Shown here piece after piece: positions 10,681-60,115 of a stretch of DNA of 64,000 bases; position 1 is the stretch's first letter, and each line of letters begins with the position of its first letter. A model generated the notes under the pieces. It did no database searches. It saw only the letters and a list, made by a program, of their open reading frames with translations, and was not told where the DNA came from. The position numbers and the translations under genes are program-made. The stretch comes from Acidobacteriota bacterium (lineage in GTDB: Bacteria > Acidobacteriota > Thermoanaerobaculia > Gp7-AA8): positions 201,169 to 265,168 of the forward strand of contig JAJXWV010000033.1 in NCBI GenBank assembly GCA_021781455.1, given 5' to 3'.

Positions 10681-10800
10681 GGACGCCGGGATGTAGGGAC
10701 GCGCAGCAGCGCGTCCGCGACTCCCGTTCCGAAAAGGCGGATCGGTCGGCGCACGACGACCAGAGCTGCGGACGCGCTGCTGCGCGTCCCTACAGTGTTC
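10681..10800. repeat. Family-C palindromic element: tagggacgcgcagcagcgcgtccgc ... gcggacgcgctgctgcgcgtcccta, with each arm itself palindromic
   Basis: Lies between convergent gene ends. Copies also at 29183-29268 and 60521-60632. Confidence 0.8.
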
Positions 10801-11428
10801 GCAGCACGGCACGGACGGGGCTGGCATCGCCTCCCCGGATCCGCAGCGGAAGCGCGATCAGCTCGTAGGAACCCTCTTCGACGCCGTCGAGCACCAACCC
10901 TTCCAGATTCGCCATGTCGTGGCGGGCCAGCGCCTGGTGCGCCTCGAGCGCCTTCGACTCGAAAGGATCGACCGAAGGCGTATCGATACCGACGAGGATC
11001 ACGCCGCGTCCGTGAAGCTCGTCGACGAGCTCCGGCGAGAGGCTGGCGAAGTCGTCGTTCCAGCGACGCGGATCGGGAAACGTGCCGGTATGGAACAGCA
11101 CACGCGGAGCATCGATCCTCTTTCCAGCGACGTGCCGCGGCATGATGCGCGCGGAACGGGCCACGTCGACACGGAAGACGTTGCAGCGCCCGACGAAAAA
11201 ATCGAGAGGCCTGGCCGCGACGTCCTCGCCGCCGGCGAGGTAGTGGCTCGGCGCGTCGGTATGCGCGCCGACGTGCAGGGTGGTGCGAATGTCCGACAGC
11301 GTGAGGTTCGCGCCGGCGCTCATGTCCAGATTCACGTTGCGCTCGAAGGGGGTATCGCCCGGCCAGACGCCGATCGAAGAGTCGACGACGGGCGAGATGT
11401 CGATCAACCGTGCGCTGTCGTCGCTCAT
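10790..11428 (-). CDS. Cyclase-family protein (kynurenine formamidase / arylformamidase-like)
   Basis: HVGAHTDAPSHY metal-binding motif of the KynB/cyclase family, about 213 aa. ATGA overlap with the upstream gene's stop indicates translational coupling. The track ORF's N-terminal extension is an artefact. Confidence 0.75.
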   Translation of the reverse strand: MSDDSARLIDISPVVDSSIGVWPGDTPFERNVNLDMSAGANLTLSDIRTTLHVGAHTDAPSHYLAGGEDVAARPLDFFVGRCNVFRVDVARSARIMPRHVAGKRIDAPRVLFHTGTFPDPRRWNDDFASLSPELVDELHGRGVILVGIDTPSVDPFESKALEAHQALARHDMANLEGLVLDGVEEGSYELIALPLRIRGGDASPVRAVLRTL

Positions 11429-12897
11429 GCCGAAGCGATCACCTTGAGCTCGACGGCGATGGGAGTCGGCAGCGAATCGACTCCCACGGTCGTGCGCGTC
11501 GGCTGGATGGCGCCGAGGAGCTCGCCGTAGGCGCGGTTGAAGCGGTCGAAGTCGCGCTTCATGTCGGTCAGGTAGACCGTCACGTCGAGGATCTTGTCGA
11601 GCGAGCTTCCGGCATCCTCCAGGATGACGCGTACGTTCTCGATGGCCGCCCGCGTCTGCACCTCGATGTCGTGGTCGATGATGCTGCCGGCGCCGTCGCG
11701 AACCACGCCGGGAATCTCGCCGCGGCCGGGCTGCCGCGGCCCGATGCCGGAGAGGAACAGGAATTCGCCGACTCTTCGCGCGTGCGGATAGGGACCGACC
11801 GGCTTCGCGGCGCGCGGCGTGACGAGGACATTCGAGTGTTGGGGCACAGACACTCTGGCCGGTGCTGTCTCCGGGTCCGGCACGGCACGGAGCGCCGGCG
11901 CGACGCGTCCGACGAGCCATTCCGGCTCGGGCGGATGTTCGTCATGCGAGTCCAGGGCGCCGGAGGCGGGAACGCGTTGCGATTCGGCGAGCACGTTGTG
12001 CGTCTCGAGGCCGCCCCCCTGCTCCATCGCGCCCACCGGGGCTTCGTCGAACTCCTTCTCCCAGGCGATCTCCTTGCGCGGATTCGGCGTCAGCTCGACG
12101 AGGGCACATCCGGTGCCCCAGACGGGCTGGTAGTCGACCACGCGCCCGTCGTAGAGGTTGTTTTCGCCGGCCAGTGCGGCCAGCCACCAGATGCCCTTGA
12201 ATCCCATGTCCGCGTTCGCTTCGCGGCCGAACTCGCGCGCCACCTGGGCCACGTCCTCGAGCCGTCCCTCGCCTAACATTTCCAGGATCTTGCGGTTCCA
12301 CTCGTCGTCTTTCTGCGATGAGATATGGTCGCAGGCCGGATCGATCTCGGCGACCTCGTAACGGTTGGACAGATTCGAGACCAGGACCACGGCGGTCCTG
12401 CGGCCGTAGCGCTCGATCGCTTCGCGCCCGAGCCGCCCTAACAGGCGCGTCTCGTCCCGTTCCGCGTAGATGTTGCAGGAGACGACCGAGGCGGGGATGG
12501 CGTTGCCCGGATTGAGCAGCTTCAGCGCGGTCACCGTGCCGGTGTCGATGGGAAATCCGTGGTAGTCGACCGTGGCCGCCTGCAGGCCGGCCTCTCTGGC
12601 GATCTCGCAGTAAAGCTTTCCGAACTGCGGGTCGATGCGGAAATCGTACGGGATCTCGCCGAACTCGTACCAGTTCTGGTCGACGAGCAGCCACCTGGGA
12701 TTCGGGTCGACCTGAAACAGGTGCCCGATCACGGAGAACCACTGCGTCGAGTACAGCAGCAGCAGTTCTGCGCCGCTGGCGGCGATCTCGCGGCCGATGG
12801 CTTCGTAGCTGGCTTTCAACGACGCCCAGCCAGAGTTGCGCTCGGGCGCAAGCAGGATGTGCGGCTGGCCCGCGGCAATGTAGAGCGTTTCGATCAC
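11425..12897 (-). CDS. Fusion protein: N-terminal LigB-type (class III extradiol dioxygenase-like) domain plus C-terminal RidA/YjgF (2-aminomuconate-deaminase-like) domain
   Basis: The N-terminal roughly 280 aa resemble MhpB/AmnA/AmnB-family subunits, but several canonical His ligands look substituted. The C-terminal roughly 125 aa are a textbook RidA fold (AKPVGPYPHARRVGEFLFLSGIGP...TTVGVDSLPTPIAVELKVIA). Confidence 0.6.
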   Translation of the reverse strand: MIETLYIAAGQPHILLAPERNSGWASLKASYEAIGREIAASGAELLLLYSTQWFSVIGHLFQVDPNPRWLLVDQNWYEFGEIPYDFRIDPQFGKLYCEIAREAGLQAATVDYHGFPIDTGTVTALKLLNPGNAIPASVVSCNIYAERDETRLLGRLGREAIERYGRRTAVVLVSNLSNRYEVAEIDPACDHISSQKDDEWNRKILEMLGEGRLEDVAQVAREFGREANADMGFKGIWWLAALAGENNLYDGRVVDYQPVWGTGCALVELTPNPRKEIAWEKEFDEAPVGAMEQGGGLETHNVLAESQRVPASGALDSHDEHPPEPEWLVGRVAPALRAVPDPETAPARVSVPQHSNVLVTPRAAKPVGPYPHARRVGEFLFLSGIGPRQPGRGEIPGVVRDGAGSIIDHDIEVQTRAAIENVRVILEDAGSSLDKILDVTVYLTDMKRDFDRFNRAYGELLGAIQPTRTTVGVDSLPTPIAVELKVIASA

Positions 12898-19424: not shown

Positions 19425-19850
19425 TCTTTATGGCTCTTCAGGATATTCAGTGGGTCCGGCGAGGTTTCGAAGGGCACTCCAGCCGTGGAGGCGTGAGGTT
19501 TAAGGCGGCTTAGCCGCCGTAAGAATTTAGCGGCGGCCGTCAGGCCGCCGGAACAAGCGATCGCATCAGCGTACGAGGGCACGAAGTGCCCGACAGAAGG
19601 CCGGGAAACAGACCGACGATCTGTCGCGCGCTGCGCGCGCTCGGACGCTGGGTCGGGCCGATCGGACGGCGGCCTGACGGCCGCCGCTAAATGATGTCGG
19701 CGGCTCCGCCGCCTCGACAAAGCCTTACTGGCAACTTCGACGTCTGACGGCCAGGGGTGAGGGCTTCTCCGTAAACGATTGACTCAGTAGCCATGAACCC
19801 AGCTGTCAGTTTCTGATCTCACCCACGGAAATCCCCGTAGAGCCATCTTT
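19425..19850. repeat. Family-B palindromic MITE-like element (core aatttagcggcggccgtcaggccgccg ... cggcggcctgacggccgccgctaaat)
   Basis: Copies in inverse orientation at 26855-27240, and a shorter copy at 51120-51335. Confidence 0.8.
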
Positions 19851-19929: not shown

Positions 19930-21651
<1,722 letters not shown>

Positions 21652-21654
21652 AGA

Positions 21655-21905
21655 AGGGGGCGAATTCTAGCAAACCAGTCGAGGGACTGCGCGATTGCCG
21701 GTTGCGCGGTTGCGCGGTGTGTCTCTCGGGTCGATCTTTCATTTGTCGTTCGAGCCAGCATGCGGCTCGAACATTTGTGTGGGACAGCTCAGGGATCGCA
21801 CCAAGCAACCGCGGAACCGCGCAACCTCGTAACCGCGCAACCTCGTAACCGCGCAACCTCGTAACCTCGCAACCGCGTGAAGCAACCTCGTAACCTCGCG
21901 GCCTT
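21655..21905. repeat. Inverted tandem arrays of GGTTGCGC/CGCGCAACC-type short units flanking a short spacer
   Basis: ggttgcgcggttgcgcgg ... (ccgcgcaacctcgtaa)n. Related copies at 33226-33325 and 61541-61570. Confidence 0.7.
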
Positions 21906-21930
21906 CCCCATTTCTGCTAGTTTGGGATCG

Positions 21931-22383
21931 GTGACCAAAGAGATTCTCGTCTTCGACCGCTCCCCCGTAGCGCGGCTGGTCAGCTGTGCCGCCGTGTTCG
22001 CGTCCGCGGCGCTGGTCTTCAACTATCTGGCCAAGAGCGGCAACGACATCGACGTCCTCTCGTTTGGTTTTTTCATCGTGCTCTTTCTCGGCACGCTGGC
22101 CGCCGCGATCGCGCAGTACGGCGATCACATCTATCTCAGCGACGACGGCGTGATGTACGAGAACCGGCTGCTCAAGCTCCTCGGAAGGCGCGGCCGGTGG
22201 ATGCGCTGGGAGGACATCATCGAGATCCGGGAGCTGCGCAGGAGCGTGCTGGTGCTGCTCTCGCGCGACGGGCAACGCATGCTCATCGACGCCATCCTCG
22301 GCTACGCGATTGCAAAACATGAGGTCCTCAGGCGGGCTCCGCAGGCCATTCTCAGCGGAACGCTCGCGCCTGAGGATCGTTGA
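21931..22383 (+). CDS. Hypothetical membrane protein (two TM helices plus a bacterial PH-like domain)
   Basis: ORF with good GC3. Start uncertain (GTG 21931 or TTG 21922); the N-terminus of the track ORF is repeat-derived. Confidence 0.4.
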   Translation: MTKEILVFDRSPVARLVSCAAVFASAALVFNYLAKSGNDIDVLSFGFFIVLFLGTLAAAIAQYGDHIYLSDDGVMYENRLLKLLGRRGRWMRWEDIIEIRELRRSVLVLLSRDGQRMLIDAILGYAIAKHEVLRRAPQAILSGTLAPEDR

Positions 22384-22428
22384 GCAGACGTTTCGCGGCC
22401 CCCCGTCACTCTGAGCCGGCGGAACCGG

Positions 22429-23568
22429 TTACTTCGTCCCCACCGGCTGCCCTGCAATCGCGCGCTCGTACACTTCGCGGTATCTCGGCACGACGCGCAC
22501 GACGTCGAATTTCTCGATGGCGATGGCGCGACCGGCGGCACCCATCCGGCGCTGCAGCCGCTCGTCGCCGAGGATCTCGATGGCCCGCGCGGCCATCGAT
22601 TCGACGTCGCCGACCGGCAGGAGGAACCCCGACTCGCCGTCGGTGACGACCTCGGGCACGCCGCCTGTCGAGGTGCTGATGACCGGCACTTCACAGGCCA
22701 TCGCTTCCAGTGCGGCCATGCCGAACGACTCCGACTCGGAAGGCAACAGGAAGAGGTCTGCGGCGCCGAGGATCTCCTCGAGGTTCGGGACATTGCCGAC
22801 GAAGAACACGCGGCTGGCAATTCCCTCCTGCCGGCAGAAGGCCTCGGCACGCGACCGGTCCGGGCCGTCGCCGATCATCACCATGCGGCTTGGGATGACG
22901 CGCGCCACTCGCGCGAAAACTTCCAGCACGTCGATCACGCGCTTGACCGGCCGGAAGTTCGAGACGTGACAGACCAGCTTCTCGCCGGTCCAGCCGAAGA
23001 GGTGCTGAAAGGCTTCGCCATGACGGCGAAACCGCTGCGTGTCGACGAAGTTCGGGATCACTTCGATCGCCTTGTCCGTGGAAAAGTTCTCCACGGTCTG
23101 CTCCTTCAGCCATTGCGAGACCGCCGTCACGCCGTCCGAGACCTCGATGCCGAATTTCGTGATCGGGAGATAGCTGGCATCACGGCCGACCAGCGTGATG
23201 TCGGTGCCGTGCAGTGTGGTGATGAGCTTCAGCGTGCTCGAATGGAGGATCTGCTGCGCCAGGTGCGCGCTGATGGCGTGCGGAATCGCATAGTGGACGT
23301 GCAGCACGTCCAGCTGCTCGTACGCCGCCACCTCGGCCTGCTTCGTGGCCAGCGCCAGTGTGTAAGGCGGATAAGGATCAAACAGCGGATATGACGTGAC
23401 CGTGACCTCGTGAAAGTGGACACGCTCGTGGAACATGTCCAGACGCGAGGGCATGGCGTAGCTGATGAAGTGCACATCGTCACCGAGCCTCGCCAGCGCG
23501 ATGCCGAGCTCGGTGGCCACGACTCCCGAGCCGCCGAAAGTGGGATAGCAGGTGATGCCGATCTTCAT
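22429..23568 (-). CDS. bshA: N-acetyl-alpha-D-glucosaminyl L-malate synthase BshA (GT4)
   Basis: Hallmark N-terminus MKIGITCYPTFGGSGVVATELG, and a C-terminal GT4 motif (EAMACEVPVISTSTGG). Confidence 0.85.
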   Translation of the reverse strand: MKIGITCYPTFGGSGVVATELGIALARLGDDVHFISYAMPSRLDMFHERVHFHEVTVTSYPLFDPYPPYTLALATKQAEVAAYEQLDVLHVHYAIPHAISAHLAQQILHSSTLKLITTLHGTDITLVGRDASYLPITKFGIEVSDGVTAVSQWLKEQTVENFSTDKAIEVIPNFVDTQRFRRHGEAFQHLFGWTGEKLVCHVSNFRPVKRVIDVLEVFARVARVIPSRMVMIGDGPDRSRAEAFCRQEGIASRVFFVGNVPNLEEILGAADLFLLPSESESFGMAALEAMACEVPVISTSTGGVPEVVTDGESGFLLPVGDVESMAARAIEILGDERLQRRMGAAGRAIAIEKFDVVRVVPRYREVYERAIAGQPVGTK

Positions 23569-23582
23569 GCTTACCTCAGATG

Positions 23583-23650
23583 GCAGATGGCAGATGGCAG
23601 ATCGCAGGTTTGAATCCGCCTGCGATCCGCGATCTGCCATCTGCGATCTT
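23583..23650. repeat. Inverted tandem array of GCAGATG/GCAGATC heptamers forming a hairpin
   Basis: tggcagatggcagatggcagatcgcagg..cctgcgatccgcgatctgccatctgcgatc between bshB1 and bshA. Confidence 0.75.
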
Positions 23651-23652
23651 CA

Positions 23653-24372
23653 TCAGAGTTCCCTTCCCTTGTAGGCCGCCACGATGTCGTCGAGGCGCGG
23701 AGGCTGGCGCGTGACGAACGGCTCGCCGTAGCGGGCGCCGATCTGCGCGCCGAAATGGCGGCCGCGCGCTTCGATCATCTCCATGAAATCGGGCCTCGAG
23801 AGCACCGTCAGCGGCTCTTTCGACTTCGGATCGTAGAACTGCGACTTGAATGCGGCGATGGCGCGCATCTTCGTCTTCCAGCTCGCCGTGACGTCGACGA
23901 TGAACGTCGGCATGTGCACGTGATGCTGGAAGAAGTACACCACTGCCTGGGGTCGATGCGCGCGCCGGCCCGTGTCGATGGCCTTCAGCCCGGCGTAGAA
24001 CGCGGCATCGCCGACGACGCGGCCGGCGCGCTCGTGGTCGGGATGGCGGTCCTGCGGGTACGGCGCGAAGACGACCGACGGCCGAGCACGGCGGATGACG
24101 TCGATGAGCGCCATCTCCTGTTCGCGGCCGGTCTGGAGGCCGCCATCATGGAAATCGAGCTGCTCGCGGAACGAGGCGCCGAGGATCTTCGCGGAGGCCC
24201 GAGCCTCGCGTTTGCGGATCTGCGGCGTCCCGCGCGTGCCCATCTCCCCGCGGGTGAGGTCGACGATGCCCACGCGCAGCCCGTCCTTCACGCTTTTCGC
24301 GACGGTCGCTCCGCACGAGAGCTCCACGTCGTCCGGATGAGCGCCGATGAACAGAAGATCAACTTTTTCCAT
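23653..24372 (-). CDS. bshB1: Bacillithiol biosynthesis deacetylase BshB1 (LmbE/PIG-L family)
   Basis: LFIGAHPDDVELSCGAT (PIG-L zinc motif HPDDE) and conserved HPDH. Confidence 0.85.
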   Translation of the reverse strand: MEKVDLLFIGAHPDDVELSCGATVAKSVKDGLRVGIVDLTRGEMGTRGTPQIRKREARASAKILGASFREQLDFHDGGLQTGREQEMALIDVIRRARPSVVFAPYPQDRHPDHERAGRVVGDAAFYAGLKAIDTGRRAHRPQAVVYFFQHHVHMPTFIVDVTASWKTKMRAIAAFKSQFYDPKSKEPLTVLSRPDFMEMIEARGRHFGAQIGARYGEPFVTRQPPRLDDIVAAYKGREL

Positions 24373-24394
24373 GATCACATGTGAAGTGCTGAGT

Positions 24395-24465
24395 ACTGAG
24401 TGCTGAGTACTGAGTGCCGAGAACTCACGGGTCTTACTCAGTACTCAGCACTCAGTACTCAGCAC
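24395..24465. repeat. Inverted tandem array of CTGAGTA/CTGAGTG heptamers (hairpin)
   Basis: gtgctgagtactgagtgctgagtactgag ... ctcagtactcagcactcagtactcagcac. Confidence 0.8.
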
Positions 24466-24469
24466 TTCC

Positions 24470-25981
24470 TTACAGTCCGAGAATCTTGAAGACGTCCGCG
24501 TCGGGCTCGATCTCCTCGACGAGCGTATCGACGAGATGCTGGCCGAAGCGGACCCAGTATGCAAACCACGCGACAACACGGTCCTGGACGTGGCCGTCGG
24601 GATAGAAGGTCGACACGAGCTCCCGCGCCGCGGCGTAGCGGTCGCGATCCTTGCGCACCAGGCCGCGGATGGCGCGTTCGGTCAGCTTGTCGAAGTGATA
24701 TTCGATGTGCCCGATGGAGCGGTTGATGGCGCGCGCCAGCGCGTGCTCGGCGGGGAGGGCGATCTCGCCGATCTGCGTGATCCGGGCGGCGAGGTCGCGC
24801 CGCGCCGCTCGAGCCAGCGACTTCACCTCTTCCACGCCTGCCGCTTCGTGCGAGGCCAGGATCTCGTCCGGAGCGGCGAAGACGCTTTCCGGATCGATGC
24901 CGAACCGTGAGAAGAGCCGCACCACGCGCTTCGGCGCCACGAGGGCATGGCCGCGCAGAGCGACGCGCGGCAGCGGTACGCCGAGGAGCTCGTGCAGGGG
25001 AGCGATCTGCGCGTAGTAAGCCACCTCCGAAGGACCGCCGATGAAGACGTCCGGGTGGAGGATCGCGTCCTGCAGAAGCGGCCGCGTATTCGCTGAAGTG
25101 GAGATCGTGGTCGGGTCGTCGACCTCGGCCGCGTTGTCGATGATGTGCCGCACTCCGTTGGCGTCGAGGCGGAACAGAAGGGTGTATCGATTGCCTTCGC
25201 GCGGCAGGATCTGCGGCTGATAGCCGGAGAGCTCCAGCGCCCGCGACCTGCCCGCCAGAGCCTCCTGCATGACGTCACACTTCGCGAGCATCTGCTCGAA
25301 CAGCCGCGCGCCGGCCCGCCGGAGCTCGGGCAGGAGCGCGTCGACGAAAACGATCTTCTCGCTCACGGCCGTGGCCACGAGCTCCGCGAACGAGTCGGCG
25401 AACGAGATCCCTTCGCGCAGCCACTTCGGACGCGGCAGGTCGTACAGCGCGAGCAGCGCGGTGGTGAGCGCCTCCGGAATCACGGCCGGGCCGACCACCT
25501 GCTTCGAGGCCACAGGACGGGTCGCCTTCAGAGTCACGAGATCGACCTGCCGGTTGACGCCGCTGCGTTCTGACGGAACGGAGGCGACCGGCAGTCCGAG
25601 AGTGGCCGCCTCGTCGTAGTCGTGATCTTCGGTCGCCAGCCAGAAGAAGATCGTGGCGCGCATGCCGCGGGACTCGAAGTCGCGCTTCATGCGGATCATC
25701 GAGGCGATCTTGGCCATCGTGTACAACGGGCCGCCGGCGAAGCCGACCTGCTGGCCGGCCACGATGGTGGCTGTCCGACCCTCATTCCAGCTCCGCAGCT
25801 CATCGTCGACGAACGAGCCCCAGCGCCGGTTCGACTCGACGAGCGCGTCGATGAGGGCCTCATCGAGCCCGCGCCGTCGCGGGCGAAGCGTGGCATCGGC
25901 GTCGGGTCCCCGCTCGCCACGCGGGAGGAACTGCGTGGCCCGCTCCGATGACGCCAACCAGTCGAGGACGAAGGGATTCAT
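24470..25981 (-). CDS. bshC: Bacillithiol biosynthesis cysteine-adding enzyme BshC
   Basis: Signature TIVAGQQVGFAGGPLYTMAKI (GQQ motif) near the N-terminus, about 504 aa. The track ORF is over-extended at its 5' end. Confidence 0.8.
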   Translation of the reverse strand: MNPFVLDWLASSERATQFLPRGERGPDADATLRPRRRGLDEALIDALVESNRRWGSFVDDELRSWNEGRTATIVAGQQVGFAGGPLYTMAKIASMIRMKRDFESRGMRATIFFWLATEDHDYDEAATLGLPVASVPSERSGVNRQVDLVTLKATRPVASKQVVGPAVIPEALTTALLALYDLPRPKWLREGISFADSFAELVATAVSEKIVFVDALLPELRRAGARLFEQMLAKCDVMQEALAGRSRALELSGYQPQILPREGNRYTLLFRLDANGVRHIIDNAAEVDDPTTISTSANTRPLLQDAILHPDVFIGGPSEVAYYAQIAPLHELLGVPLPRVALRGHALVAPKRVVRLFSRFGIDPESVFAAPDEILASHEAAGVEEVKSLARAARRDLAARITQIGEIALPAEHALARAINRSIGHIEYHFDKLTERAIRGLVRKDRDRYAAARELVSTFYPDGHVQDRVVAWFAYWVRFGQHLVDTLVEEIEPDADVFKILGL

Positions 25982-26025
25982 CCCCGGATACCGCGCCAGC
26001 GGAACGCGCAGACAGCCTGCTTCGC

Positions 26026-26739
26026 TCACAGTCCCTTGCTCCCCACCAGGATGAGGCGCGGCGAATCGCCGTTCCACGGCTCTCCGTCGAAGTCGCCGAA
26101 TGCCGCGCGGATGGACAGATCGCAAGCCGTGAACATCGCAGAAATCTCGCCGAGTTCGTAGCCTCGCACGCGCTCCAGGTAATGTTTTTGACCGATCGTT
26201 ATCCGTTTGTTGAACGATCGGTCTGATTTGTCGAACCAGCGCTCGATCATCACCGGCCCCCTGGGAGTCTCCCGCGTCTCCTTCCTGACCAGGTGCTCGA
26301 GCTCGCGGTGCACGTTCAGGTAGTCGAACAGAAACGGTGCGCGATGCGCGAGAACGCGCGACATCTCCCGGACCACCTGCATGTTCTCCTCTTCGCTCGC
26401 AAAATACCCGAAGCTGGTGAAGAAGTTGACCAGCCCGGCGATGCTGGCGGTGCAGAACGGGAGCTGGCGCATGTCGGCCCGGGCCACGCGGATGGGGCCG
26501 TGCTCGCTGCGACCGGTCTGCAGCAGGAGGAACGACAGGTCGCATCCGGCGGAGCGGTAGCCGCACTCCTCGAGCTCGTAGAGATGCCGCCCCGTTCCGC
26601 AGGCGACATCGAGCAGCGGTCCGGCGATGGGGCCGCACTGGTCTCGAAAGAACTCCACCTGCCGTCGCGCCTCCTCCTCGTCGCGATAGGAGTAGAGCTC
26701 GAGGTATTCCTCGCCGAACCACTCGCGGTACCAGGTCAT
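26026..26739 (-). CDS. Class I SAM-dependent methyltransferase
   Basis: Motif I LLDVACGTGRH. Start chosen at MTWYREWF. First gene of the bsh operon. Confidence 0.75.
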   Translation of the reverse strand: MTWYREWFGEEYLELYSYRDEEEARRQVEFFRDQCGPIAGPLLDVACGTGRHLYELEECGYRSAGCDLSFLLLQTGRSEHGPIRVARADMRQLPFCTASIAGLVNFFTSFGYFASEEENMQVVREMSRVLAHRAPFLFDYLNVHRELEHLVRKETRETPRGPVMIERWFDKSDRSFNKRITIGQKHYLERVRGYELGEISAMFTACDLSIRAAFGDFDGEPWNGDSPRLILVGSKGL

Positions 26740-26807
26740 CACGCGGCAGTTTATGCGAGGGACGGCGAGGCTCCGGAAGCAGCCGGGACCGAGGGGTTCA
26801 TGCAACC

Positions 26808-27330
26808 CAAAAAGAAAATGTTGAATGTTGAATGTTGGCCCTACAGGGATTTCCGTGGGTGAGATGAAAATTGGCATTGACAGCTGGGTTCATTGCTACC
26901 GATGGTTTGCGGAGAAGCCCTCACCCCTGGACGTCTGACGTCGAATTTGCCATTGGAGCTTTGTCGAGGCGGCGGAGCCGTCGACATCATTTAGCGGCGG
27001 CCGTCAGGCCGCCGTCCGATCGGCCCGACCCAGCGTCCGAGCGCGCGCAGCGTGCGACAGATCCTCGGTCTGTTTCCCGGCCTTCTGTCGGGCACTTCGT
27101 GCCCTCGTACGCTGATGCGATCGCTTGCTCCGGCGGCCTGACGGCCGCCGCTAAATTCTTGCGGCGGCTAGGCCGCCTTGAAAGTCGCTGCTCCGCGGCG
27201 CGAGTGCACTCTTCGAAATTTCGCCGGACCCACTGAATATCCTGAAGCGCCTGAATATTCAATGTTGTCAGAGTCTCCGGTTCGCCTCTTCATCCAACAC
27301 TCAATATTCAACATTCAACACTTCGCTTTC
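26808..27330. repeat. Family-B MITE copy (26855-27240) sitting between inverted arrays of GAATGTT/GAATATT heptamers (26808-26835 and 27245-27330)
   Basis: aatgttgaatgttgaatgttgg on the left, caacactcaatattcaacattcaacac on the right. The internal 385 bp are the reverse complement of the 19425-19850 copy. Confidence 0.75.
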
Positions 27331-27331
27331 A

Positions 27332-28363
27332 TCACAGTTCGCTCAGGCGCTGCCGCAGGGCGCGCTCGTTCTCTCTGGCGTGTTCCAGCGCCGATTCCAG
27401 CGCGGCGACGATGGCGCGCGTGTTGGCGAGCAGCGACTCGATGCCGGCGCGCTCGGCCGCGGTATCGGCCGGCGCAGCGGCCGCGAACGGCTCCGCAACC
27501 GCAACGGGAGGATCGATCACCGGCGCCGCGCCGAACGGGTCTTCCTCGAGCGGCGGCGCCGCCGGCGCGAAGACGCTTTCGAACGCAGCAACGGGCACCG
27601 GGGCCGGCTGTGCGAATGCCGCCGGCGGCACCTCGACTGCCGGACGCCCCGCCGGTGAAGGTCTCGGCGCACCCTCGCGCATGGAAAGCTTCGGCGTGCC
27701 GGCCGAGGCGGAGGTCGCTCCCGCCTTCGCCGACATGTCGGGGGCGGTCAGCTCCGGCTCTTCGGCCAGTGTCGTGTCGACGTGGTTCTTGAGGTTGTCG
27801 AGAATTCGTCCCACGGCCGCACGCAGCGTCGCCGTGACTCCCACGCCGTTGATCGCGGCCGCCTCGATCACCGGCGCCGGGCCCGGCTCCAGATAGGCGG
27901 TCATGTCGTCGACGCTGTCGGTGTTGGGCAGATCGCGCTTGTTGTACTGGAACACCAGCGCCACTTTCTCCGGATCGATCCGGTTGAGGCGCAGGTTGGT
28001 CTTGAGGTTCTGCAGGCTGTCGACGTTCGACTCGCGCATCGACGCCTGCGAATCGGCGACGAAGACCACGCCGTCGGCGCCGCGAAGCACCAGCTTGCGC
28101 GTGGCGTCGTAGAACACCTGGCCGGGAACCGTGTACAGCTGCACGCGGACCTTCTGGCCGCCGATCGTGCCGAGCTCCATCGGCATGAAGTCGAAGAAGA
28201 GGGTGCGGTCCGTCTCCGTCGACATCGAGATCATCTTGCCCTTGTTCTCAAGCTTCGGATTGGCGTAGACCTTTTCCAGGTTCGTCGTCTTCCCGCACAG
28301 GCCGGGCCCGTAGTACACGAGCTTGACCGTGACTTCGTTGATCGCCTTGTTGATCAGGACCAT
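27332..28363 (-). CDS. MglA-family Ras-like small GTPase with a long Ala/Pro-rich C-terminal extension ending in a coiled coil
   Basis: N-terminus VKLVYYGPGLCGKTTNL plus G3/G4 motifs (TVPGQ, QYNKRD) closely match MglA. The protein is 343 aa versus about 195 aa for MglA. Confidence 0.8.
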   Translation of the reverse strand: MVLINKAINEVTVKLVYYGPGLCGKTTNLEKVYANPKLENKGKMISMSTETDRTLFFDFMPMELGTIGGQKVRVQLYTVPGQVFYDATRKLVLRGADGVVFVADSQASMRESNVDSLQNLKTNLRLNRIDPEKVALVFQYNKRDLPNTDSVDDMTAYLEPGPAPVIEAAAINGVGVTATLRAAVGRILDNLKNHVDTTLAEEPELTAPDMSAKAGATSASAGTPKLSMREGAPRPSPAGRPAVEVPPAAFAQPAPVPVAAFESVFAPAAPPLEEDPFGAAPVIDPPVAVAEPFAAAAPADTAAERAGIESLLANTRAIVAALESALEHARENERALRQRLSEL

Positions 28364-28500
28364 TGGGGTTCCTCCGATGGAGTGAGAGCCGATAGATTAG
28401 CAGGGAGAGCGAGCGGGCAGCGAGCAGCGGACAGGCTGGCCCTTTGTGTGACCTGACCGCCGCCCGAGGCCTGCGGAAACTTGATACCCTTCGGTCCGCC

Positions 28501-29182: not shown

Positions 29183-29268
29183 GCGTGCAGGGACGCGCTG
29201 CTGCGCGTCCGCAGCCCTCGTTTCGGGGCAGATGAACGGAGTTGCGGACGCGCTGCTGCGCGTCCCTC
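29183..29268. repeat. Family-C palindromic element copy
   Basis: cagggacgcgctgctgcgcgtccgc ... gcggacgcgctgctgcgcgtccct. Confidence 0.8.
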
Positions 29269-31940: not shown

Positions 31941-32010
31941 CCGCCAGCGCTGAGTCCTGAGTGCTGAGTAGAACGCGACTCAGGACTCAGGACTCAGGAC
32001 TCAGGACTTC
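31941..32010. repeat. Inverted tandem array of CTGAGTC/CTGAGTG heptamers
   Basis: gctgagtcctgagtgctgagta ... gactcaggactcaggactcaggactcaggac. Confidence 0.75.
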
Positions 32011-34165: not shown

Positions 34166-34266
34166 AATCGAGACGGGTAGCGGGTAGCGGGTAGCGGGTA
34201 GCGGGTAGGAAACACGGCCTACCCGGTACACGCTACCCGCTACACGCTACCCGCTACCCGCTACCC
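34166..34266. repeat. Inverted tandem arrays of GGGTAGC heptamers (hairpin)
   Basis: gggtagc x4 ... ctacccggtacacgctacccgctacacgctacccgctacccgctacccgc. Confidence 0.8.
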
Positions 34267-34286
34267 GCTGTCTTCTTGGGGGGCAC

Positions 34287-35824: not shown

Positions 35825-35960
35825 GAGTGCTGAGTACTGAGTGCTGAGTACTGAGTGCTGAGTACTGAGTGCTGAGTACTGAGTGCTGAGTACTGAGTGG
35901 TCAGTACTGAAGCCTCGGTTTTTCCCACTCAGTACTCAGCACTCAGTACTCAGCACTTCG
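35825..35960. repeat. Inverted tandem arrays of CTGAGTA/CTGAGTG heptamers (about 9 units per arm)
   Basis: Direct reading. The longest example of this hairpin class in the window. Confidence 0.85.
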
Positions 35961-37072: not shown

Positions 37073-37335
37073 GACTCCCGTCACTCTGATTCTGAGCCGG
37101 CGAAGCCGCGGTTCCCGTCACTCTGACTCTGAGCCCGCGAAGCCGCGGGGAAGGGTGGGCGGATGGAGCGGCGTAGCGCGGCGAAGAGTCTCAAACCGAC
37201 GAATCGTCCCGGTAAGAGACTCTTCGCCGCGCTCCACCGCTCCCACCCATCCACCACCCCCGCGTTTCCCCCGGCTCAGAGTGACGGGGCCGCTGGGCCC
37301 GCCGGCTCAGAGTGACGGGAGGCCGCGGCTCCGGC
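37073..37335. repeat. Family-A composite REP element (two tandem gtcactctga-type units plus a gagtctcttaccgggacgattcg inverted pair)
   Basis: Direct sequence comparison with the other copies. Confidence 0.8.
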
Positions 37336-40684: not shown

Positions 40685-40805
40685 TTCCTCGTGTCATCCT
40701 GAGCCGGCGAAGCGCGGCGAAGGACCCCGGAACAGGAATCGAAATGATCGGGGTCCTTCGCCGCGCTACGCGCCTTTGGCGCTCCGCCGGCTCAGGATGA
40801 CACCT
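40685..40805. repeat. Family-A REP element copy (tcatcctgagccggcg ... cgccggctcaggatga inverted pair)
   Basis: Between sufU and sufT. Confidence 0.75.
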
Positions 40806-41430: not shown

Positions 41431-42758
41431 TCACCGGAACACCTCGATCACCCGCTTCAGACCGGCGATCAGCGCATCGACTTCTTCACGAGTGTTGTAC
41501 ATGCCGAACGACGCCCGGCTCGTCGCCGGAACGTTGAAGCGCATCATGAGCGGTTGCGCGCAGTGATGCCCGGTGCGGATGGCCACACCTTCCTGGTCGA
41601 GGATCGTGCCGATGTCGTGCGGATGAACGCCTTCCAGCGTGAAGGAGATGACACTGGCCTTCTCGGCCGCCGTGCCGATGATGCGCAATCCGGGAATCTC
41701 CACGAGCCTCCCGGTCGCGTAGACGAGCAGGTCGTGCTCGTGAGCGCCGATTTTCTCGATTCCGGCCGTGCTCACGTAGTCGAGTGCCGCAGCCAGGCCG
41801 AGCACCCCGGAGATATTCGGCGTTCCCGCTTCGAACTTGTACGGCAGCGCGTTGTAGGTGGTCTTCTCGAAGGTGACCGACAGGATCATGTCGCCGCCGC
41901 CCTGCCAGGGAGGCATCGCGTCGAGGATCGGCTGCTTGCCGTAGAGGACGCCGATGCCGGTCGGCCCGTAGACCTTGTGTCCTGAGAATGCGTAGAAATC
42001 GCAGTCGAGCTCCTGCACGTCGATGGGCAGATGAGGCACTCCCTGGGCGCCGTCGATCAGGATCAGCGATCCGTTGGCGTGGGCCAGGGCGATCATCTGC
42101 CGGATCGGGTTGATCGTGCCGAGGGCGTTGGAGGCGTGGCCGACGGCCACGATCTTCGTGCGCGGAGTGAGGAGGTTGGCGAATTGATCGAGCATGACCT
42201 CGCCAGCGTCGTTGACCGGCGCGATGCGCAGCTGGGCGTGCTTCTCGCCGCACAGCAGCTGCCACGGGACGATGTTCGAGTGATGCTCGATGGCCGTGAT
42301 CAGGACCTCGTCGCCCTCACCCACATTGGCGCGGCCCCAGGCCTGGGAGACGAGGTTGATCGACTCGGTCGTGCCGCGCGTGAAGACGATCTCCTTCTCG
42401 TCGCGGGCATTGAGGAAGCGCTTCACGGTCGTGCGCGCCGCCTCGTACTCGCTGGTGGCGACTTCGCTCAGGTAGTGCACGCCGCGATGAACGTTCGAGT
42501 TTTCTTCGCTGTAGTAGCGAACCAGGCGGTCGATCACCGCCTGCGGTTTCTGGGTGGTGGCTGCGTTGTCGAGATAGACGAGCTTCCGCCCGTGGACGCT
42601 GCGCGCCAGGATCGGGAAGTCGCGGCGGATGCTCTCGACGTCGTAGTCGGACCGCAGACCGCGGACCGCAGACCGCAGCGGCTGTGCTTCCGAGAGGCGG
42701 TCGGTGGTCGGCGATCGGTGCGCTGTGGTCTGCGGTCCGCGGTCTGCGGTCCGGGTGG

Positions 42759-42761: not shown

Positions 42762-44878
<2,117 letters not shown>

Positions 44879-44880
44879 TG

Positions 44881-44965
44881 ATCTGAAGTGCTGAGTACTG
44901 AGTGCTGAGTACTGAGTGTCCGACTTGCCCACTCAGTACTCAGCACTCAGCACTCAGTACTGCCT
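44881..44965. repeat. Inverted arrays of CTGAGTA/CTGAGTG heptamers between sufB and sufC
   Basis: The track ORF for sufC reads through this as MGKSDTQYSALSTQHF. Confidence 0.85.
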
Positions 44966-46904: not shown

Positions 46905-47180
46905 CGGGCGTCACCCAGTCGAGGGGTCAAAACAGTACCACTGCGGTACGGTTTATACAACCGCGCGGGCGGGCGGGTTTGTTCCTCGTGGTCGGAGCGT
47001 TCCGTACGGGGCGCGGAGGGGCTGTGGGGTACGCGGTCACCGGGTCACCAGGTCGCCGGGTCTCGAGGTCGCGAGGTCGGATCCACCCGGTGACCTGGTG
47101 ACCCGGTGACCCGATGTCCCGCCGCTGGAACATGCGACCCTCCCTCCCCGTTCTACACCCGCGAAAAGGAGAGTTGCCGA

Positions 47181-51020: not shown

Positions 51021-51370
51021 GTGCTGAGTCCTGAGTGCTGAGTCCTGAGTGCTGAGTCCTGAGTGCTGAGTCCTGAGTGCTGAGTCCTGAGTGCTGAGTG
51101 CTGAGTGCTGAGCGCTGAGCGCCGAGGCGGCGGAGCCGCCGAAAGAATTTAGCGGCGGCCGTCAGGCCGCCGGAGGGTCGGTCGTGTGAGCGTAAGAGGG
51201 CGCGAAGCGCCCGGCAGAAAACTGGGGAGAAACACAAGGATCTGTCGCACGCTTTGCGCGCTCGGACGCTGCGTCGGCTGATCCGACGGCGGCCTGACGG
51301 CCGCCGCTAAATTCTTTCGGCGGCTCCGCCGCCTCAGCACTCGCCCACTCAGGACTCAGGACTCAGCACT
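51021..51370. repeat. Family-B MITE copy (51120-51335) nested between inverted arrays of CTGAGTC/CTGAGTG heptamers (51021-51115 and 51335-51370)
   Basis: About 13 heptamers on the left and 4 reverse-complement units on the right; the MITE core is in between. Confidence 0.8.
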
Positions 51371-52596: not shown

Positions 52597-52680
52597 CATC
52601 ACGGGCTCTTGGTTGTTGGCTCTTGGCTCTTGGGATGGCCGGGGTTGCCCAAGAGCCAAGAGCCAACAGCCAGGAGCCAA
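52597..52680. repeat. Inverted arrays of GCTCTTG/GTTGTTG heptamers upstream of the giant ORF
   Basis: ggctcttggttgttggctcttggctcttgg ... cccaagagccaagagccaacagccaggagccaac. Confidence 0.75.
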
Positions 52681-52690
52681 CTTCGAGGAA

Positions 52691-59924: not shown

Positions 59925-60115
59925 CGAAGCGCGCCCCCGTCACTCTGAGCCGGCGGAACCGCGGGTGCGGTGGATGGGCGGGAGCGGTGGAGCGCGGCGA
60001 AGAGTCTCTTACCGGGACGATTGACAGGTGTGAGACTCTTCGCCGCGCTACGCCGCTCCACCACCCGCCCTTCCCCGCGGCTACGCCGGCTCAGAGTGAC
60101 GGAGCCGCGATCATT
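59925..60115. repeat. Family-A composite REP element copy
   Basis: gtcactctgagccggcg / gagtctcttaccgggacgattg / caatcg..gagactcttcgccgcg / ggctcagagtgacgg modules. Confidence 0.8.

What the first reader, a model, noticed from the sequence alone, without database searches (positions are those of the whole stretch)
22429..26739. Complete bacillithiol biosynthesis operon (MTase-bshC-bshB1-bshA) in a high-GC Acidobacteria-like genome
BshA (MKIGITCYPTFGGSG), BshB1 (PIG-L motif) and BshC (GQQ motif) are encoded contiguously behind a class I SAM methyltransferase gene. This implies the organism uses bacillithiol or a derivative as its low-molecular-weight thiol. The co-transcribed methyltransferase raises the possibility of a methylated bacillithiol derivative, as reported for N-methyl-bacillithiol in Chlorobi. 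Hairpin repeats separate each gene.
Basis: partly seen in the sequence, partly recalled or inferred. Interest (0 to 1): 0.5.

Follow-up and report, generated by a model that had tools for sequence, protein, structure and literature searches.

The report
N-methyl-bacillithiol operon in an acidobacterium
Four adjacent genes in an uncultured Thermoanaerobaculia (Acidobacteriota) genome encode the three bacillithiol-making enzymes plus a homologue of the enzyme that N-methylates bacillithiol; this is a tidy but expected new example of a known pathway.

Summary
On the minus strand, 22429-26739 carries nmbA-like methyltransferase, bshC, bshB1 and bshA. BshA and BshB1 pass NCBIfam equivalog cut-offs. 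BshC passes both Pfam BshC domains but falls below the NCBIfam cut-off.

The methyltransferase is not generic. Its best solved-structure match is Chlorobaculum tepidum NmbA (9RI2), the proven bacillithiol N-methyltransferase, at E 2e-24 over the full length. The next methyltransferase scores 2e-7. Most pocket residues named for CtNmbA are conserved.

The same four-gene order recurs in every Thermoanaerobaculia relative long enough to check, and in loci from Planctomycetota, Fibrobacterales and Anaerolineae. Gemmatimonadota keep an nmbA-bshC pair, and an 807-aa NmbA-BshC fusion exists elsewhere.

In a 72%-identical relative all three junctions overlap by 4 nt. In the window only nmbA/bshC overlaps (GTGA). 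The other two junctions carry very stable hairpins (-67 and -54 kcal/mol). These are not specific to this operon: the window has 16 strong hairpins, including in the suf operon.

N-methyl-bacillithiol in Acidobacteria was already predicted in 2018 and 2025, so this is a new member of a known kind. The product and co-transcription remain untested.

The parts
26026..26739 (-). nmbA-like class I SAM-dependent methyltransferase (237 aa), predicted bacillithiol N-methyltransferase
   Evidence: Best PDB hit is 9RI2 (CtNmbA), E 2.2e-24, full length. BLASTP gives 30% identity over 97% coverage. W16, W20, R70, K198, Y134, F135 and motif I are conserved; H31 is replaced by Ser. Nearly all 120 listed homologues are about 237 aa.
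24470..26029 (-). bshC (519 aa from GTG 26029, overlapping the nmbA stop as GTGA; alternative ATG at 25981)
   Evidence: PF10079 and PF24850 pass. TIGR03998 scores 214.9 bits, below its cut-off of 265.8. 4WBD matches at E 2e-20 with the GQQ motif. The N-terminal RVPLxxYPG is conserved with L002. BshC is called at 519 aa with a 4-nt overlap in L084.
24383..24468 (.). Intergenic hairpin between bshC and bshB1; arms are built from alternating AGTGCTG/AGTACTG heptamers
   Evidence: 33-bp perfect stem. -67.3 kcal/mol, z -10.6. The same unit occurs at 35868-35957 and 44891-44957, and a related unit (AGTCCTG/AGTGCTG) at 31950-32004. Orthologous hairpins are present in L001, L084 and L086 but absent in L002.
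23653..24378 (-). bshB1, GlcNAc-malate deacetylase (241 aa from GTG; probable ATG at 24372)
   Evidence: TIGR04001 scores 288.9 bits against a cut-off of 182.5. The BshB2, MshB and Mca models score far lower. PF02585 PIG-L matches.
23578..23649 (.). Intergenic hairpin between bshB1 and bshA; arms are built from GCAGATG/GCAGATC heptamers. Its base covers the GAGG upstream of the bshA ATG.
   Evidence: 31-nt arms, 90% complementary. -53.7 kcal/mol, z -7.2. Flanked by a 10-nt direct repeat ATGAAGATCG at 23644-23653 and 23559-23568.
22429..23568 (-). bshA, N-acetylglucosaminyl-L-malate synthase (379 aa)
   Evidence: TIGR03999 scores 520.5 bits against a cut-off of 273.7. GT4 Pfam domains match. 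Start MKIGITC agrees with the 372-379 aa calls in relatives.
26837..27251 (-). MITE-like insertion (415 nt) in the leader between the upstream GTPase gene and nmbA
   Evidence: A second copy lies at 19432-19844 (+), 89-92% identical. Imperfect terminal inverted repeats of about 24 nt. The 8-bp direct repeat ATCTTTAT flanks copy L, read. Folds at -203.6 kcal/mol, z -7.3. Absent from the 96%-identical relative L001.
27332..28363 (-). Co-directional upstream gene: small Ras/Arf-like GTPase with a long C-terminal extension. It may share a transcript with the operon.
   Evidence: Arf/Ras/small_GTP matches. Only a 9-nt gap to nmbA in L003. Found upstream only in the close clade, not in L004-L011.

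Best explanation
This is a four-gene biosynthetic operon, nmbA-bshC-bshB1-bshA, for N-methyl-bacillithiol.

The predicted pathway has four steps:
1. BshA joins UDP-GlcNAc to L-malate.
2. BshB1 removes the acetyl group.
3. BshC adds cysteine to give bacillithiol.
4. The NmbA homologue transfers a methyl group from SAM to the cysteine amino nitrogen.

The gene identities and the family assignment are shown by sequence. The pathway chemistry follows from what is established for the characterised enzymes (B. subtilis BshA/B/C; C. tepidum and P. polymyxa NmbA). The product in this organism is inferred.

The ancestral arrangement was translationally coupled, with 4-nt overlaps at all junctions. In the window's lineage, stable heptamer-repeat hairpins were inserted at two junctions and a MITE into the leader. 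These most likely modulate mRNA stability or relative expression rather than abolish the operon. That last point is inference.
For: - Family models: BshA and BshB1 score above equivalog cut-offs, and BshC's best and only match is the BshC model.
- Methyltransferase versus CtNmbA: 9RI2 matches at E 2.2e-24 over the full length, including the N-terminal and C-terminal Cap segments. The next PDB methyltransferase scores 2.3e-7 and covers only the Rossmann core.
- BLASTP gives 30% identity and 97% coverage. This meets the identity (>25%) and coverage (>80%) criteria of PMC12719100. The published E-value threshold could not be applied on the same database.
- Conserved residues: motif I, the D67/D89 acidic residues, and FGYF (Ct Y134/F135), plus W16, W20, R70 and K198.
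- All 150 diverse representatives returned by the search with the window protein, and all 120 close homologues, also hit CtNmbA. The best representatives are about 34-40% identical to it over the full length.
- Synteny among 83 loci: the four-gene order is found in the Thermoanaerobaculia/Acidobacteriota relatives L001-L011 (plus L084 and L086) and in Anaerolineae, Fibrobacterales and two Planctomycetota loci. An nmbA-bshC pair occurs in about 10 Gemmatimonadota/Longimicrobiales loci.
- Fusion: an 807-aa NmbA-BshC protein has six full-length members from independent sources.
- Coupling: 4-nt overlaps at all three junctions in L002/L003, and a GTGA overlap at nmbA/bshC in the window.
- No sigma-70-like promoter or U-tract terminator lies inside the cluster.
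- In an NJ tree the window's clade sits within the family that contains CtNmbA and the Paenibacillus lineage.
Against: - Identity to the characterised CtNmbA is only 30%, and H31, one of the residues adjusted in the published docking, is Ser here.
- Fold comparison does not single out NmbA. CypM ranks first and 9RI2 fifth. The model is only moderately confident (pLDDT 75.9).
- BshC is below the NCBIfam equivalog cut-off.
- The only cultured member of the class, Thermoanaerobaculum aquaticum, is listed as bacillithiol-only in PMC12719100.
- No bacillithiol-dependent enzymes (bacilliredoxin, DinB-type transferase, YpdA) were found in the 64-kb window.
- Very stable hairpins between genes could act as terminators or processing sites.
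- There are no transcript or metabolite data.
Confidence: 0.75

Rival explanations
1. The cluster makes plain bacillithiol, and the NmbA-like methyltransferase acts on a different acceptor. Candidates are a pathway intermediate, cysteine before ligation, a bacillithiol conjugate, or another atom of bacillithiol. The final thiol would then not be N-methyl-bacillithiol.
For: Identity to CtNmbA is only 30%. H31 is replaced by Ser. Fold search ranks other N- and C-methyltransferases alongside NmbA. PMC12719100 notes that outlying homologues might methylate other acceptors. The reaction catalysed by BshC and its cysteine donor are unknown (PMC5790435).
Against: Homology covers the full length, including the Cap segments that form the substrate basket. 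Most named pocket residues are conserved. Linkage and fusion are specifically with bshC, the enzyme that makes NmbA's substrate. Hiras 2018 never detected N-methyl-cysteine in C. tepidum.
Confidence: 0.12
2. The genes are adjacent but no longer a single operon. The inserted hairpins act as terminators or processing sites, and the MITE disrupts the leader, so nmbA-bshC, bshB1 and bshA are expressed separately or unequally.
For: The hairpins fold at -67.3 and -53.7 kcal/mol and sit exactly between genes. The ancestral 4-nt overlaps are lost at two junctions. A 415-nt MITE lies in the leader. The GAGG before bshA lies in the base of a stem.
Against: No T-run follows either hairpin, and no promoter-like site lies inside the cluster. 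Hairpins at the same junctions are retained in relatives at 75-96% methyltransferase identity, with all four ORFs intact in L084 and L086. Similar hairpins sit inside the essential suf operon. All four ORFs are intact in the window.
Confidence: 0.1
3. The methyltransferase is an unrelated housekeeping enzyme that lies next to the bsh genes by chance.
For: NCBIfam and Pfam give only generic methyltransferase matches, and no NmbA model matched in either library.
Against: The CtNmbA match is specific and full length. Linkage is conserved in several phyla. The stop and start codons overlap with bshC. Fusion proteins exist.
Confidence: 0.03

Closest known systems
NmbA (CT1040) of Chlorobaculum tepidum, bacillithiol N-methyltransferase (Hiras 2018, PMC6282198; structure 9RI2, Hammerstad 2025, PMC12719100)
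   Same: Class I SAM methyltransferase of similar length. Homology is full length, including the Cap segments. Motif I, FGYF, W16, W20, R70 and K198 are conserved. bshA, bshB and bshC occur in the same genome.
   Different: Only 30% identical, and H31 is Ser. In C. tepidum the four genes are scattered (CT0548, CT1419, CT1558, CT1040). Here they form one cluster with nmbA overlapping bshC.
Bacillus subtilis bacillithiol genes (bshA-bshB1 in the mgsA operon; bshC with panE)
   Same: The same three enzyme families. BshA and BshB1 score as equivalogs. BshC matches the B. subtilis structure 4WBD.
   Different: In B. subtilis bshC is in a separate operon and there is no methyltransferase (PMC5790435). 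Here all the genes are contiguous and nmbA comes first.
Predicted N-Me-BSH pathways in other Acidobacteriota (Chloracidobacterium spp.; Hammerstad 2025 Supplementary Dataset 1)
   Same: Same phylum and the same four gene families.
   Different: A different class, Thermoanaerobaculia, whose only RefSeq species is listed as bacillithiol-only. Neither paper's main text mentions an operon, gene neighbourhood or fusion.
REP/BIME-type intergenic palindromes inside operons (own knowledge, e.g. E. coli malEFG)
   Same: Stable stem-loops between co-directional genes, present at many loci in the genome, with no T-tract.
   Different: The arms here are tandem arrays of 7-8-nt units. The units differ between sites, and copy number varies between close relatives. 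No function was tested.

Membership tests
NmbA (bacillithiol N-methyltransferase) | Class I SAM methyltransferase core with motif I (VLDIAxGxG) and acidic residues of motifs II/III | tested here: met
   LLDVACGTGRH, D67, D89 and FGYF are present and invariant across the family alignment. Methyltransf_25 and Methyltransf_11 pass.
NmbA (bacillithiol N-methyltransferase) | Published homologue criteria against CT1040: identity >25%, coverage >80%, similar length, BLAST E <= 1e-20 (PMC12719100) | tested here: met
   30% identity, residues 3-232 of 237, 237 versus 266 aa. Pairwise BLASTP E 5e-32 and phmmer E 2.2e-24 against 177,635 PDB sequences. E-values are not on the same database as the paper's, so this criterion is met only approximately.
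NmbA (bacillithiol N-methyltransferase) | Residues at the substrate/cosubstrate site named for CtNmbA (W16, W20, H31, R70, K198; Y134, F135) | tested here: met
   W3, W7, R51, K178, Y112 and F113 are conserved. H31 aligns with S17, so 6 of 7 match.
NmbA (bacillithiol N-methyltransferase) | Narrow-basket Cap domain topology seen in the crystal structure | tested here: inconclusive
   The AF2 model (pLDDT 75.9) matches 9RI2 at rank 5, TM about 0.65, behind CypM. The paper reports that AlphaFold mispredicts this Cap topology even for CtNmbA.
NmbA (bacillithiol N-methyltransferase) | Co-occurrence with bshA, bshB and bshC in the same genome | tested here: met
   The genes are adjacent and co-directional, and nmbA overlaps bshC.
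NmbA (bacillithiol N-methyltransferase) | Bidirectional best hit with CT1040 (Hiras 2018 criterion) | not tested
   Neither the whole genome of this organism nor that of C. tepidum was available. Only the forward direction against the PDB was run.
NmbA (bacillithiol N-methyltransferase) | SAM-dependent N-methylation of bacillithiol | not testable with these tools
   Needs an enzyme assay or thiol profiling.
BshA (TIGR03999) | Score above the equivalog cut-off; GT4 fold | tested here: met
   520.5 bits against 273.7. The MshA model scores only 73.9.
BshB1 (TIGR04001) | Score above the equivalog cut-off; PIG-L domain | tested here: met
   288.9 bits against 182.5. BshB2 scores 59.2. PF02585 matches.
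BshC (TIGR03998 / PF10079 + PF24850) | Score above the equivalog cut-off | tested here: not met
   214.9 bits against 265.8. This is a divergent lineage: BshC is also the least conserved of the four genes among relatives, at 23-28% identity in L004-L011.
BshC (TIGR03998 / PF10079 + PF24850) | Both BshC-specific Pfam domains and homology to the solved BshC | tested here: met
   PF10079 scores 123.7 bits and PF24850 41.5 bits, both above their cut-off of 27. 4WBD matches at E 2e-20 with the GQQ and GP.E..Y motifs aligned.
Single operon | Same strand, coupled junctions, no internal promoter or terminator | tested here: inconclusive
   Same strand. GTGA overlap at nmbA/bshC. Gaps of 84 and 91 nt are filled by hairpins. 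No sigma-70-like promoter or U-tract terminator was found, but the consensus used may not fit Acidobacteriota.
Single operon | One transcript spanning all four genes | not testable with these tools
   No transcript data.

The most novel reading that the evidence does not exclude
nmbA and bshC form an old, tightly coupled two-gene module. It shows stop/start overlap in Thermoanaerobaculia, a conserved pair in Gemmatimonadota where bshA and bshB were not found within about 7 kb, and true NmbA-BshC fusion proteins elsewhere. This would imply a physical NmbA-BshC complex that channels newly made bacillithiol. It would also offer a naturally fused enzyme as a new handle on the BshC reaction, which has never been reconstituted in vitro. 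A consequence is that uncultured Thermoanaerobaculia, a class so far scored as bacillithiol-only, would use N-methyl-bacillithiol as their main thiol.
Probability: 0.25. Interest if true: 0.45.

Novelty: new member of a known kind. Interest (0 to 1): 0.3.

Why it matters
The finding extends the predicted range of N-methyl-bacillithiol to uncultured Thermoanaerobaculia, which are common in soils and sediments. It also gives the cleanest kind of genomic-context support for the NmbA assignment: all four steps lie in one cluster, with nmbA translationally coupled to bshC.

The compact 4.3-kb cluster is a convenient cassette for heterologous production of N-Me-BSH. The linked or fused nmbA-bshC forms could help workers who are trying to reconstitute the BshC reaction.

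It does not change the current picture of low-molecular-weight thiols.

Tried and rejected
- **Rfam and tRNA scans of the whole window:** nothing found. The hairpins and the MITE are therefore not known RNA families.
- **Promoter and terminator consensus scan of 21600-28500:** no promoter-like site, and one terminator-like site outside the cluster. This is uninformative about transcription units.
- **NCBIfam and Pfam for the methyltransferase:** only generic or far-below-cut-off matches, such as the DVU_1556 family at 34.8 bits against a cut-off of 155. No NmbA model matched in either library.
- **AF2 model plus Foldseek against the PDB:** confirms the methyltransferase fold with a four-strand Cap, but does not discriminate NmbA from CypM, CcbJ or 3D2L.
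- **Genome-collection scan:** Close relatives came from exact-protein look-ups instead.
- **Search for bacillithiol-dependent enzymes:** I scanned 43 further candidate ORFs in the window with Pfam and found none. The neighbours are housekeeping genes such as proS, eda, the suf operon, ddl and eno.
- **Inversion of the 7-kb segment:** I considered that the 415-nt inverted repeats flanking proS to nmbA mark an invertible segment. Gene order and orientation are the same in L001, which lacks the repeats, so there is no evidence of inversion.
- **Upstream GTPase as part of the conserved unit:** it is upstream only in the close clade, so I rejected this.
- **Literature searches:** no paper in the held library combines nmbA, bshC and operon, and none was found on Thermoanaerobaculia hairpin repeats.

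Full report
**Observation**

Six-frame ORF listing and family scans show four co-directional genes on the minus strand between 22429 and 26739.

- bshA (22429-23568, start MKIGITCYPTFGGSG) scores 520.5 bits on TIGR03999, against a cut-off of 273.7.
- bshB1 (23653-24378) scores 288.9 bits on TIGR04001, against a cut-off of 182.5. It scores far lower on the BshB2, MshB and Mca models.
- bshC matches only the BshC model in NCBIfam, at 214.9 bits, which is below the equivalog cut-off of 265.8. It passes both BshC-specific Pfam domains. It also matches the B. subtilis BshC structure 4WBD at E 2e-20, with the GQQ motif aligned.
- The first gene is a class I SAM methyltransferase. The mechanical ORF is 283 aa, but nearly all of the 120 listed homologues are about 237 aa. 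The ORF's extra N-terminus lies in a repeat element.

GC content is about 64-65%. Named relatives are Thermoanaerobaculia or Acidobacteriota MAGs.

**Start of bshC**

The junction reads CTGTGAGCGAA. A GTG at 26029 overlaps the methyltransferase stop codon. The peptide it opens (VSEAGCLRVPLARYPGMNPF) aligns with the N-terminus MRVPLEHYPGMNRF of BshC in relative L002. Gene callers give BshC as 519 aa (L084) and 517 aa (L086), each with a 4-nt overlap on the methyltransferase gene. The first two genes are therefore translationally coupled and are not separated by a hairpin.

**Is the methyltransferase NmbA?**

A sequence search of all PDB chains gives 9RI2 as the top hit, at E 2.2e-24. The alignment covers residues 2-232 of the query and 15-258 of the target. 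The next methyltransferase scores 2.3e-7 and aligns only to the Rossmann core. PMC12719100 identifies 9RI2 as C. tepidum NmbA (CT1040) and shows biochemically that it methylates the cysteine nitrogen of bacillithiol.

BLASTP gives 30% identity over 97% of the window protein. This meets that paper's identity and coverage criteria for a homologue. Its E-value threshold cannot be compared directly, because the databases differ.

In an alignment of the window protein, 15 diverse homologues and CtNmbA, 28 columns are invariant. They include motif I, D67, the FGYF segment (Ct Y134/F135), ESVR and the C-terminal GD-G and SPR motifs. Mapping the residues the paper names at the active site gives W16, W20, R70 and K198 conserved, and H31 replaced by Ser.

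All 150 representatives returned by an exhaustive search with the window protein also hit CtNmbA. The best are about 34-40% identical to it over the full length. An NJ tree of 84 sequences places the window within a Thermoanaerobaculia clade. That clade lies inside a family that also holds CtNmbA and the Paenibacillus lineage, and the family largely follows phylum boundaries.

An AlphaFold2 model (pLDDT 75.9) retrieves the same structural neighbours that the paper lists for CtNmbA: CypM, 3D2L, CcbJ and 1Y8C. 9RI2 ranks fifth. Fold comparison therefore agrees with the assignment but does not discriminate. The paper itself reports that AlphaFold mispredicts the Cap topology.

**Genomic context elsewhere**

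I searched 83 loci that encode relatives of the methyltransferase with the window's BshC, BshB and BshA proteins.

- The order nmbA-bshC-bshB-bshA recurs in every Thermoanaerobaculia/Acidobacteriota locus long enough to show it (L001-L011; also L084 and L086).
- The same order occurs in one Anaerolineae, one Fibrobacterales and two Planctomycetota loci.
- Partial forms occur in Hydrogenedentota and Eisenbacteria.
- About ten Gemmatimonadota/Longimicrobiales loci have nmbA followed directly by bshC. bshA and bshB were not found within about 7 kb of those pairs.
- In Bacteroidota, Paenibacillus, Ignavibacteria, Holophagae and Chlorobiaceae, nmbA stands alone. This matches the scattered genes of C. 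tepidum.
- One representative (P0136, 807 aa) is a methyltransferase-BshC fusion. Its cluster has six full-length members from independent sources, so it is not a sequencing artefact.

This recurrent linkage to the enzyme that makes NmbA's substrate is strong contextual support for the assignment.

**Operon architecture and the hairpins**

In L002/L003, whose methyltransferase is 72% identical, all three junctions are 4-nt ATGA overlaps and there are no hairpins. In the window and in relatives at 75-96% identity (L001, L084, L086), the bshC/bshB1 and bshB1/bshA junctions instead carry hairpins within spacers of roughly 84-142 nt.

In the window these hairpins fold at -67.3 kcal/mol (z -10.6) and -53.7 kcal/mol (z -7.2). 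Their arms are tandem arrays of 7-nt units. Between the window and L001 the same units are present, but copy number and loops differ.

Neither hairpin is followed by a T-run, and the consensus scan finds no promoter-like site in the cluster.

The hairpins are not special to this operon. My scan finds 16 strong hairpins in the 64-kb window. Twelve lie between candidate ORFs, and the four scored as inside an ORF probably reflect over-extended ORF starts. Ten have 7-8-nt periodic arms, and several sit between genes of the suf operon.

It describes a genome-wide habit, not a design feature of this pathway. Their effect on expression is unknown. By analogy with REP elements, I infer mRNA stabilisation or tuning of expression.

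**The leader**

In L001 about 80 nt separate the upstream GTPase gene from nmbA. In the window the gap is 593 nt. The extra DNA is an AATGTTG-heptamer hairpin plus a 415-nt MITE-like element (26837-27251). The MITE has a second, inverted copy at 19432-19844 and a partial third copy at 51125-51335.

The upstream GTPase gene is only 9 nt from nmbA in L003. It is absent upstream in L004-L011. The conserved unit is therefore the four genes.

**Comparison with the literature**

- Hiras et al. 2018 (PMC6282198) discovered N-Me-BSH and NmbA. From gene content they predicted complete N-Me-BSH pathways in Acidobacteria, with 33% of the bacillithiol-positive Acidobacteria genomes carrying nmbA.
- Hammerstad et al. 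2025 (PMC12719100) found 4 of 51 RefSeq Acidobacteriota species with all four genes. They list Thermoanaerobaculum aquaticum as bacillithiol-only.
- Neither paper's main text mentions operons, gene neighbourhood or fusions. No paper in the held library combines nmbA, bshC and operon.
- In B. subtilis, bshA and bshB1 share an operon while bshC is elsewhere. The BshC reaction has not been reconstituted in vitro (PMC5790435).

**Verdict**

This is a real and intact nmbA-bshC-bshB1-bshA cluster. It most likely makes N-methyl-bacillithiol (confidence about 0.75).

It is a new member of a known kind. The pathway, the enzyme family and its presence in the phylum were already known or predicted. The modest additions are three: the compact coupled operon, its presence in uncultured Thermoanaerobaculia, and the recurrent nmbA-bshC module and fusion.

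The product, the methyl acceptor and co-transcription remain untested.

Noticed in passing
window 19432-19844 (+) and 26837-27251 (-); partial copy at 51125-51335: A MITE-like element of about 415 nt is present in two inverted copies, 89-92% identical, flanking the 7-kb proS-to-nmbA segment. It has imperfect terminal inverted repeats of about 24 nt (GGCTCTTCAGGATATTCAGTGGGT / ACCCACGGAAATCCCCGTAGAGCC). An 8-bp direct repeat ATCTTTAT flanks copy L, and AATATTCA/AACATTCA flank copy R. Its palindromic core is about 215 nt. It folds at -203.6 kcal/mol (z -7.3). It is absent at both sites in the 96%-identical relative L001. No Rfam hit and no transposase were seen.
   Followed up: partly
window 21699-21880, 23578-23649, 24383-24468, 31950-32004, 34174-34267, 35868-35957, 42648-42753, 43724-43805, 44891-44957, 47035-47111, 52604-52678: Intergenic regions across the window, including those inside the suf operon, carry long hairpins whose arms are tandem arrays of 7-8-nt units. 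Examples are AGTGCTG/AGTACTG, CGGGTAG, GCAGATG, GGTTCCTC, GGTCACC, GGCTCTT and CGCGGTTG. Units differ between sites, and copy number varies between close relatives. I know of no described family of this type, and one literature search found nothing.
   Followed up: partly
window 23644-23653 and 23559-23568: The 10-nt string ATGAAGATCG, which is the bshA start, occurs on both sides of the bshB1/bshA hairpin in the window and in L001. Relative L002 has a single copy at an ATGA overlap. This looks like a target duplication made when the hairpin was inserted, but L084 lacks it. The mechanism is unexplained.
   Followed up: partly
window 10692-10794 and 29189-29267; 37165-37243, 40711-40767 and 59981-60059: Two further families of repeated palindromes, not built from heptamers, sit at gene ends: AGGGACGCGCTGCTGCGCGTCC, and GGAGCGGnGnAGCGCGGCGAAGAGTCTC with a looser relative at 40711-40767. 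They are REP-like.
   Followed up: no
window 52613-59899 (+): A single 2428-aa ORF combines TamB/DUF748/YhdP-type domains with four POTRA repeats and a C-terminal Omp85 barrel. The two partners of the TAM translocation module, which are normally separate, would be fused in one polypeptide.
   Followed up: no
proteins P0136 and P0271-P0277 (not in the window): These are 807-aa natural fusions of an NmbA-like methyltransferase (N-terminal) with BshC. Six full-length members come from independent NCBI, JGI, ENA and Logan assemblies.
   Followed up: partly
window 27332-28363 (-): A small Ras/Arf-like GTPase with a GPGLCGKTT P-loop, which I recall as MglA-like (not tested here). It has a C-terminal extension of about 150 aa that is rich in Ala and Pro and ends in a predicted helix. 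It lies directly upstream of nmbA, with only a 9-nt gap in relative L003, but only in the close clade.
   Followed up: partly
window 11425-12897 (-): A 490-aa ORF combines a LigB-type extradiol dioxygenase domain with a C-terminal RidA/L-PSP domain.
   Followed up: no
L001 10786-12347: In the closest relative (ENA contig_69876), bshC is called only as a 270-aa fragment, although tblastn finds 92% identity from the junction onward. This is probably a frameshift or an assembly error in that record.
   Followed up: no
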